From the sequence record L00023.1: DNA of 368 bases, one strand, 5' to 3'. Source of the stretch: a phage. The position numbers and the translations under genes were made by a program. Position 1 is the stretch's first letter. Every line of letters starts with the position of its first letter. Shown here one piece after another: positions 1 through 368 of the stretch. The notes below the pieces were generated by a model. That model saw only the letters and a list, made by a program, of their open reading frames with translations, was not told the origin of the DNA and ran no database searches.

Positions 1-82
1 TCAAACACCAGCACGGTGGGACGTGGTTCAGAAGGTGTAGCTGCCAGACAAGGTGTATTCCCGTCTGCAGGTTGGTAGCCAT
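1..82 (-). CDS. murI: Glutamate racemase MurI, N-terminal fragment (5' partial; continues beyond window start); reading frame interrupted by an apparent 1-nt indel near 62-67
   Basis: Minus-strand ATG at 82-80 gives MATNLQ. After a one-base frame jump the translation continues DGNTPCLAATPSEPRPTVLVF to the window edge, matching the N-terminus of E. coli MurI as recalled. An alternative in-frame ATG lies at 94-92 (MRQSMATN...). No strong Shine-Dalgarno is evident. The murI start overlaps the btuB 3' end by about 56 nt, as known for this locus. Confidence 0.6.
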   Translation of the reverse strand, partial: MATNLQTGIHLVWQLHLLNHVPPCWCL

Positions 83-122
83 AGACTGTCTCATAATCTT
101 TGTCGAACAGGTTGGCTATTTT
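28..122 (-). CDS. btuB: TonB-dependent vitamin B12/BF23/colicin E outer-membrane receptor BtuB, C-terminal fragment (about 31 codons), cut off upstream at the phage junction; same apparent 1-nt frameshift as murI
   Basis: Minus-strand translation from 122 downward gives KIANLFDKDYETVYGYQPA. After a one-base frame shift it gives REYTLSGSYTF and a TGA stop at 30-28. This matches the recalled BtuB C-terminus and the typical TonB-dependent receptor terminal beta-strand ending in Phe. The reading frame is broken at about 123-128 by lambda core sequence (in-frame TAG at 128-126). Confidence 0.65.
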
Positions 123-129
123 ATACTAA
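115..129. other. Hybrid att core (attL-like crossover region): GCTATTTTATACTAA, 14/15 identical to the lambda common core GCTTTTTTATACTAA; overlap region TTTATAC at 120-126
   Basis: Direct match to the recalled lambda core. The single mismatch (A at 118 where lambda has T) lies in the left core-type half-site. Sequence to the right is lambda P' arm; sequence to the left is btuB/murI, not the lambda P arm. Confidence 0.8.
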
Positions 130-133
130 GTTG
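125..133 (-). promoter_or_regulatory. Core-type Int binding site C' (bottom strand CAACTTAGT)
   Basis: Plus-strand ACTAAGTTG at 125-133 is the reverse complement of CAACTTAGT, which fits the lambda core-type consensus CAACTTNNT, at the right edge of the overlap region. Confidence 0.7.
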
Positions 134-154
134 GCATTATAAAAAAGCATTGCT

Positions 155-167
155 TATCAATTTGTTG
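155..167 (+). promoter_or_regulatory. IHF binding site H' of the lambda P' arm
   Basis: TATCAATTTGTTG matches the IHF consensus WATCAANNNNTTR and sits between core and arm-type sites, as in lambda attP/attL. Confidence 0.7.
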
Positions 168-174
168 CAACGAA

Positions 175-205
175 CAGGTCACTATCAGTCAAAATAAAAT
201 CATTA
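175..205 (+). promoter_or_regulatory. Arm-type Int binding sites P'1-P'2-P'3 (tandem, about 10-bp spacing)
   Basis: AGGTCACTAT (176-185), CAGTCAAAAT (186-195) and AAAATCATTA (196-205) resemble the arm-type consensus (C/A)AGTCACTAT. Exact site boundaries are approximate. P'3 overlaps the int stop codon. Confidence 0.75.
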
Positions 206-368
206 TTTGATTTCAATTTTGTCCCACTCCCTGCCTCTGTCATCACGATACTGTGATGCCATGGTGTCCGACTTATGCCCGAGAAGATGTTGAGCAAACT
301 TATCGCTTATCTGCTTCTCATAGAGTCTTGCAGACAAACTGCGCAACTCGTGAAAGGTAGGCGGATCC
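203..368 (-). CDS. int: Lambda integrase Int (tyrosine recombinase), C-terminal 55 codons plus stop; 5' partial, continues beyond window end
   Basis: Minus-strand translation from 367 gives DPPTFHELRSLSARLYEKQISDKFAQHLLGHKSDTMASQYRDDRGREWDKIEIK with stop TAA at 205-203. This matches the recalled lambda Int C-terminus. By the standard lambda Int numbering (356 aa), the active-site residues are His308 (352-350), Arg311 (343-341), His333 (277-275) and the nucleophile Tyr342 (250-248). Confidence 0.93.
   Translation of the reverse strand, partial: DPPTFHELRSLSARLYEKQISDKFAQHLLGHKSDTMASQYRDDRGREWDKIEIK

What the first reader, a model, noticed from the sequence alone, without database searches (positions are those of the whole stretch)
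1..205. Lambda att junction fused to E. coli btuB-murI DNA: secondary-site integration in btuB (bfe)
Right of the core is the lambda P' arm and int. Left of the core the lambda P arm is missing and is replaced by sequence encoding the BtuB C-terminus and MurI N-terminus on the minus strand. This is the structure expected for an attL (Delta-O-P') junction from Int-mediated insertion into a secondary site about 30 codons before the btuB stop, or for the matching junction in a defective transducing phage carrying DNA from the btuB-murI-rrnB-rpoB side. The last BtuB beta-strand with its terminal Phe is here separated from the rest of the gene, so the truncated gene would give a BF23/colicin E-resistant, B12-uptake-defective phenotype. 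This is a classical kind of event, not a new system.
Basis: partly seen in the sequence, partly recalled or inferred. Interest (0 to 1): 0.6.

Follow-up and report, generated by a model that had tools for sequence, protein, structure and literature searches.

The report
Lambda attL junction inside E. coli btuB
This is the left prophage/host junction left when phage lambda integrated at a secondary site near the end of the E. coli btuB gene, almost certainly as cloned from the 1970s transducing phage lambda rifd18; it is a classical, already known laboratory event.

Summary
Window 119-368 is identical to lambda 27728-27977: right part of the att core, the whole P' arm, the last 54 int codons, ending at lambda's BamHI site. 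Window 1-123 is the reverse complement of E. coli K-12 4165510-4165387 (btuB 3' end overlapping the murI start), with two differences. The parents share only TTTTA (119-123), so the crossover lies at the left edge of the 7-bp Int overlap region, in btuB codons 583-585.

A position matrix built from 304 independently mapped lambda secondary sites ranks this position and orientation first of 3,690 in btuB.

The lambda BamHI site plus the next K-12 BamHI site predict a 7,508-bp fragment. [quoted passage not shown]

The hybrid junction is absent from 5,426 E. coli genomes and from the phage, plasmid, genome, viral and metagenome collections.

They are most likely old sequencing errors. As written they frameshift murI and break the BtuB C-terminal frame.

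The parts
1..118 (-). Bacterial arm (Delta): reverse complement of E. coli K-12 4165510-4165392. On the minus strand it holds the btuB 3' end (window 122 down to 28, stop TGA at 30-28) overlapping the murI 5' end (ATG at 82-80, running to window 1).
64..71 (.). PstI site CTGCAG (65-70) flanked by the only two differences from K-12: a C missing between 64 and 65, and G instead of T at 71. Probably sequencing errors from the Maxam-Gilbert era. As written they frameshift murI after codon 6, change Lys4 to Asn, and fuse the btuB frame to the murI frame.
   Evidence: The deletion is in 0 of 5,426 genomes.
115..129 (+). Hybrid 15-bp att core GCTATTTTATACTAA. Lambda has GCTTTTTTATACTAA and the btuB site has GCTATTTTACCACGA.
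119..123 (.). Crossover interval TTTTA, the only bases shared by both parents (core positions -4 to 0). It lies in btuB codons 583-585.
120..126 (+). 7-bp overlap (strand-exchange) region, phage-type TTTATAC. The btuB site has TTTACCA, so the left 4 bp match and the right 3 bp do not.
   Evidence: The position of the overlap region is established lambda knowledge.
125..133 (-). C' core-type Int binding site CAACTTAGT, a perfect match to CAACTTNNT.
155..167 (+). IHF site H' (TATCAATTTGTTG).
   Evidence: 1 match, 0.02 expected
176..206 (+). Int arm-type sites P'1 (176-185), P'2 (186-195) and P'3 (197-206).
203..368 (-). 3' end of lambda int: last 54 codons plus stop (stop at 205-203), including the catalytic-Tyr motif ASQYRDD.
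363..368 (.). BamHI site GGATCC (lambda 27972-27977), which is the end of the window and the inferred end of the cloned fragment.

Best explanation
The window is an attL-type (Delta-O-P') junction made by lambda Int recombining attP with a secondary attachment site in btuB. The site lies in codons 583-585 of 614, 41 bp upstream of the murI ATG.

Shown: everything right of the crossover is unaltered lambda (overlap region, C', H', P'1-3, int 3' end). Everything left of it is K-12 btuB/murI DNA. The switch falls within TTTTA at the left edge of the overlap region.

Inferred mechanism: the attP intasome captured the btuB site, whose bases match the core at 8 of the 9 positions from -8 to 0. Int exchanged the top strands at the left boundary of the overlap. 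The three mismatched bases on the right (TAC versus CCA) were then settled by replication, repair or host resolution, which fixed the phage-type overlap in attL.

In the lysogen the last 30-31 BtuB residues are cut off from the gene, which should abolish the receptor.

Inferred source: the same junction was retained when aberrant excision produced the defective, gal-type transducing phage lambda rifd18 (btuB'-murI-rrnB...rpoBC joined to attL-int). The window is the lambda-proximal end of its 7.5-kb BamHI fragment, the pKK3535 insert. From memory, this is the reverse complement of the first 368 nt of GenBank J01695.
For: (1) Window 119-368 is 100% lambda 27728-27977, and 1-123 is K-12 btuB/murI with 2 differences.
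(2) The breakpoint lies in a 5-bp interval inside the annotated 15-bp recombination core.
(3) The P' arm site set is complete.
(4) In a matrix built from 304 independent secondary sites (PMC5605937 Table S1), the btuB site scores 8.9 bits. That is above 70% of catalogued sites, only 1.7e-4 of random sequences reach it, and the wrong orientation scores 0.2. It ranks first of 3,690 positions and orientations in btuB with both matrices.
(5) The left half of the overlap is identical, as is typical of lambda secondary sites (PMC2817482).
(6) The window ends at lambda's BamHI site. The first K-12 BamHI site downstream is at 4172644-49, giving 250 + 7,258 = 7,508 bp. pKK3535 carries a 7.5-kb BamHI fragment of lambda rif-d holding rrnB (PMC5187513).
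(7) Lambda rifd18 carries rrnB, tufB, rplKAJL and rpoBC (title of Taylor & Burgess 1979). These genes lie on the side of the junction to which the window's bacterial arm points.
(8) From my own knowledge, not retrieved here: Kirschbaum & Konrad 1973 obtained this phage from a lysogen with lambda inserted in bfe (= btuB).
Against: The reciprocal junction (P-O-Delta') is not in the window, so reciprocity is unproven. No collection searched holds the junction, so the identification with lambda rifd18/pKK3535/J01695 rests on the BamHI arithmetic plus memory, not on a direct sequence match. The site is not among the 304 sites of the 2017 survey, whose only btuB entry is at 4163595 in the leader. 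The bacterial arm differs from K-12 at two positions.
Confidence: 0.93

Rival explanations
1. It is a natural lambdoid prophage (lambda, HK97, HK106 and others share this att/int module) sitting in btuB of a wild E. coli strain, not a laboratory construct.
For: Many lambdoid phages and prophages carry an identical att-int segment. The btuB site is a good secondary site.
Against: No place in 5,426 complete E. coli genomes spans the junction. The exact 38-nt junction is absent from the genome, viral and metagenome contig collections. The window stops exactly at lambda's BamHI site, and the BamHI arithmetic gives 7,508 bp.
Confidence: 0.03
2. The junction is Int-independent. It arose by illegitimate recombination or aberrant excision at 5-bp microhomology, or it is a chimeric clone or assembly artefact.
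For: The parents share a 5-bp microhomology (TTTTA), the sort of homology that can mediate illegitimate joins.
Against: The lambda breakpoint falls inside the 15-bp core, a chance of about 1 in 10,000 for a random point in 48.5 kb. The bacterial breakpoint is the top-scoring Int secondary site of 3,690 in btuB, in the correct orientation. There is no restriction site or vector sequence at the join.
Confidence: 0.02
3. It is an engineered att site (for example a Gateway-style attL cassette) fused to E. coli DNA in vitro.
For: attL-type architecture with a modified core base.
Against: The P' arm and overlap region are wild-type lambda with no engineered changes over 250 bp. The single core change is exactly the btuB base. 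No plasmid record carries the junction.
Confidence: 0.01

Closest known systems
Lambda attL (BOP') at the primary attB site between gal and bio
   Same: Same P' arm, C' site, overlap sequence TTTATAC, and int immediately adjacent. Same Int/IHF chemistry.
   Different: The left arm is btuB/murI instead of the gal-side B arm. The core has A instead of T at -5, and the left core-type site is poor (TGGCTATTT against CAACTTNNT). The parental bacterial site mismatches the right three overlap bases.
Other lambda secondary attachment sites (classical proA/B, trpC and galT sites; the 304 sites of Tanouchi & Covert 2017, PMC5605937)
   Same: Conserved T run at -1 to -3, T at -6, C at -7 and A at +6. The left half of the overlap is identical and the right half is divergent. 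It lies inside a coding region. Its score falls within the catalogue's range, at the 70th percentile. It closely resembles the listed lacA, ompF and cusS sites.
   Different: This particular site (centre 4165387) is not in that catalogue. It lacks the conserved T at -5, C at -10 and A at +5.
Lambda rifd18 transducing phage / pKK3535 rrnB plasmid insert (from memory: GenBank J01695, Brosius et al. 1981)
   Same: Ends at a BamHI site in lambda int. The predicted fragment is 7,508 bp and contains murI, rrsB, gltT, rrlB, rrfB and part of murB. The 16S gene would start at nt 1518 of the fragment, which matches my recollection of the record.
   Different: No direct sequence comparison was possible, because that record is not in any searchable collection here.

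Membership tests
Lambda Int-generated attL (Delta-O-P') junction at a secondary site | Intact phage P' arm (C', H', P'1-P'3) contiguous with int | tested here: met
   100% identity to lambda 27728-27977; sites mapped
Lambda Int-generated attL (Delta-O-P') junction at a secondary site | Phage/host breakpoint inside the 15-bp core, at or in the 7-bp overlap region | tested here: met
   The crossover is confined to window 119-123, core positions -4 to 0
Lambda Int-generated attL (Delta-O-P') junction at a secondary site | The uninterrupted bacterial site resembles the secondary-site consensus, with identity in the left part of the overlap | tested here: met
   TTTA is 4 of 4 identical. The site scores 8.9 bits and ranks first of 3,690 in btuB. 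The rule is stated in PMC2817482.
Lambda Int-generated attL (Delta-O-P') junction at a secondary site | A reciprocal attR (P-O-Delta') junction at the other prophage end | not testable with these tools
   It is outside the window, and no record with the prophage was found
Lambda Int-generated attL (Delta-O-P') junction at a secondary site | Formation depends on Int and IHF | not testable with these tools
   Needs genetics or in vitro recombination
Lambda rifd18 7.5-kb BamHI fragment (pKK3535 insert) | One end is a BamHI site, and the fragment is about 7.5 kb and contains the whole rrnB operon | tested here: met
   The window ends in lambda's BamHI site. In silico the fragment is 7,508 bp and spans rrsB to rrfB. 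pKK3535 is described in PMC5187513.
Lambda rifd18 7.5-kb BamHI fragment (pKK3535 insert) | Base-for-base identity with the deposited sequence | not testable with these tools
   The record is not in the phage, plasmid or E. coli collections. No plasmid spans the junction.
Gateway-type engineered attL | Engineered core and altered P' bases | tested here: not met
   The P' arm and overlap are wild type. The only change is the btuB base.

The most novel reading that the evidence does not exclude
Two related readings are not excluded. First, the 1-bp deletion and Lys4Asn change at the start of murI may be real mutations in the cloned or transduced copy, for example selected because extra murI is harmful, and not 1981 reading errors. 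Second, because the prophage sits only 41 bp upstream of the essential murI ATG and int is co-oriented with it, murI in the btuB::lambda lysogen may be expressed from a promoter supplied by phage DNA (the int 3' end or the P' arm).
Probability: 0.1. Interest if true: 0.2.

Novelty: already known. Interest (0 to 1): 0.1.

Why it matters
The value is mainly historical and practical. The event is the secondary-site integration that produced lambda rifd18, the phage from which rrnB, tufB, the rplKAJL genes and rpoBC were first cloned. It also means the classic rrnB clone, and by inference the reference rRNA record, begins with 250 bp of phage lambda followed by a truncated btuB and murI. Annotators and contamination screens should know this. 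It adds nothing new to Int biology. It is, however, a clean example in which a matrix from 2017 high-throughput data correctly picks out the single best site in a gene that was targeted by selection in the 1970s.

Tried and rejected
(a) I searched for the junction in phage, plasmid and E. coli genome records and as an exact 38-mer in the genome, viral and metagenome contigs. Nothing was found, so the natural-prophage idea was dropped.

(b) I looked for the site in Tanouchi & Covert's Table S1. Its only btuB entry is a different site in the leader, at 4163595.

(c) I tried to read Kirschbaum & Konrad 1973, Heller & Kadner 1985, Doublet et al. 1992 and Ross & Landy 1983. None is held. Full-text searches for rifd18 and bfe gave only a reference title.

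(d) The Rfam scan gave no hit and no terminator was found.

(e) I considered whether the 9-nt repeat CGAACAGGT (104-112 and 171-179) is an arm-type-like site. About 0.26 such repeats are expected by chance in 368 nt (my estimate), and there is no arm-type consensus match at 104-117, so I treated it as chance.

(f) I considered a Gateway or engineered att site and rejected it, because the P' arm is wild type.

Full report
**What is in the sequence**

The 368-nt window splits cleanly into two parents.

- **Lambda part.** Megablast against phage records aligns window 115-368 to lambda J02459 27724-27977 with one mismatch. A direct alignment shows that 119-368 is 100% identical to lambda 27728-27977. 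It also shows that the window ends exactly at the GGATCC at 27972-27977. The J02459 annotation places the 15-bp recombination core at 27724-27738 (window 115-129). It places the int CDS from 27812 on the minus strand, which is window 203 onward. The minus strand of 203-367 translates to the Int C-terminus...HLLGHKSDTMASQYRDDRGREWDKIEIK*.
- **E. coli part.** Window 1-130 hits the btuB/murI overlap in all 5,426 complete E. coli genomes. Against K-12 MG1655, window 1-123 is the reverse complement of 4165510-4165387.

**The junction**

In the three-way alignment, window 118 (A) is E. coli-specific because lambda has T there. Window 124 (T) is lambda-specific because K-12 has C there. Positions 119-123 (TTTTA) are common to both.

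The hybrid core is GCTATTTTATACTAA. Lambda has GCTTTTTTATACTAA and the btuB site has GCTATTTTACCACGA. With the overlap region TTTATAC at window 120-126, the left four overlap bases match between the partners and the right three (TAC versus CCA) do not. The crossover therefore sits at the left edge of the overlap.

Right of the crossover the full P' arm is present:
- C' at 125-133, a perfect CAACTTAGT
- the IHF H' site at 155-167 (0.02 matches expected by chance)
- arm-type sites P'1, P'2 and P'3 at 176-206

This is the Delta-O-P' (attL) architecture. In btuB coordinates the crossover covers the last base of codon 583, codon 584 and the first base of codon 585, out of 614.

**Is the btuB site a credible Int target?**

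I built a log-odds matrix (positions -14 to +14) from the 304 lambda secondary sites that Tanouchi & Covert mapped by junction sequencing (PMC5605937 Table S1). The attB row was left out.

- The btuB site scores 8.94 bits, above 70% of the catalogued sites in leave-one-out scoring.
- Only 1.7e-4 of random sequences reach that score.
- The opposite orientation scores 0.22.
- Of all 3,690 positions and orientations in K-12 btuB, the window's site ranks first. This holds both with the all-site matrix and with a matrix from the 42 sites seen in at least 2 samples.

This is what one expects if lysogens were selected for loss of BtuB function and Int used the best available site. Conservation of the left half of the overlap in lambda secondary sites, and the need for host processes to complete recombination when the overlap is heterologous, are summarised in PMC2817482. 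The site itself is not in the 2017 catalogue. That paper's single btuB entry maps to 4163595 in the leader.

**Mechanism**

*Shown:* the identity and arrangement of the parts, and the position of the exchange.

*Inferred from established Int biochemistry:*
1. The attP intasome captures the btuB site.
2. Int exchanges the top strands at the -4/-3 boundary. This joins the btuB arm to the phage overlap and P' arm.
3. The mismatched right half is settled by replication, repair or host resolution. In attL this leaves the phage-type TTTATAC that is seen here.

In the lysogen the last 30-31 BtuB residues, including the C-terminal Phe, are separated from the gene. From general knowledge of outer-membrane barrel assembly and of btuB (bfe) genetics, this should give resistance to BF23 and E colicins and a B12-uptake defect. 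That phenotype was not tested here.

**Where the window probably comes from**

- The window stops at lambda's BamHI site.
- The bacterial arm points toward murI, rrsB, gltT, rrlB, rrfB and murB.
- The only BamHI site in the next 10 kb of K-12 is at 4172644-4172649, inside murB.
- So 250 bp of lambda plus 7,258 bp of K-12 gives a 7,508-bp BamHI fragment holding the whole rrnB operon.
- The title of Taylor & Burgess 1979 lists rrnB, tufB, rplK, A, J, L and rpoBC on lambda rifd18.

A gal-type defective transducing phage keeps attL and int, which fits. From memory, not retrieved here: Kirschbaum & Konrad (1973) derived lambda rifd18 from a lysogen with lambda inserted in bfe. Also from memory, the Brosius et al. 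(1981) record J01695 is 7,508 bp with 16S at 1518-3059. My arithmetic puts rrsB at nt 1518 of the predicted fragment. J01695 is confirmed only as the standard E. coli 16S/23S reference record.

**Absence elsewhere**

No phage, plasmid or E. coli genome record spans the junction. The exact 38-nt junction is absent from the genome, viral and metagenome contig collections. This points to a one-off laboratory event and not to a recurrent natural insertion.

The bacterial arm has two differences from K-12. A C is missing between window 64 and 65, and window 71 is G instead of T. They lie immediately either side of the PstI site CTGCAG at 65-70.

The deletion occurs in none of the 5,426 genomes. The G occurs in one strain, ESDR8.

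As written, the minus strand reads KIANLFDKDYETVYGYQ and then shifts into the MurI frame (PADGNTPCLAATPSEPRPTVLVF), while REYTLSGSYTF* lies in another frame. murI is frameshifted after codon 6 and carries Lys4Asn.

Errors that hug a restriction site used for end-labelling are typical of Maxam-Gilbert sequencing, so I regard them as probable sequencing errors. Real mutations in the cloned copy are not excluded.

**Rivals**

- **Natural prophage:** rejected by the absence from all collections and by the BamHI end.
- **Int-independent join or chimera:** rejected because both breakpoints fall exactly where Int acts, and the site ranks first of 3,690.
- **Engineered att site:** rejected because the P' arm and overlap are wild type and the only core change is the btuB base.

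**Verdict**

This is a classical and already known event, so interest is low.

Noticed in passing
window 64-71: The only two differences from K-12 (a missing C, and T to G) directly flank the PstI site. As written they frameshift murI after codon 6 and fuse the btuB frame to the murI frame. They are probably old sequencing errors. The G variant exists in 1 of 5,426 genomes (strain ESDR8); the deletion exists in none.
   Followed up: partly
window 1-368, minus strand; K-12 4165255-4165430: int, the btuB 3' end and murI are co-oriented, and the essential murI ATG lies only 41 bp beyond the crossover. The only promoter-like match upstream of murI in K-12 (4165255-4165282) would be cut off by the insertion. 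A weak promoter-like match in the int 3' end (window 243 to 216, minus strand) points toward murI. How murI was expressed in the lysogen is unresolved.
   Followed up: partly
window 104-112 and 171-179: A 9-nt direct repeat, CGAACAGGT, occurs once in the bacterial arm just left of the core and once next to or overlapping P'1 in the phage arm. About 0.26 such repeats are expected by chance in 368 nt, so it is probably coincidence.
   Followed up: no
L001 (J02459) 27814-27854 versus window 176-206 (lambda 27785-27815): The lambda record's 'int 4' binding feature lies inside the int coding sequence, about 30 bp to the right of where the P'1-P'3 arm-type sites map by consensus. This may be a coordinate offset in the old annotation.
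   Followed up: no
E. coli genome collection: Two of the 5,428 places that match the btuB/murI arm are on plasmid records, not chromosomes. Neither spans the lambda junction. I did not inspect them.
   Followed up: no
window 115-125 and 138-148: The inverted repeat GCTATTTTATA / TATAAAAAAGC flanks the core. It is the native lambda core/P' palindrome, reduced to 91% complementarity by the btuB-derived A at window 118.
   Followed up: no
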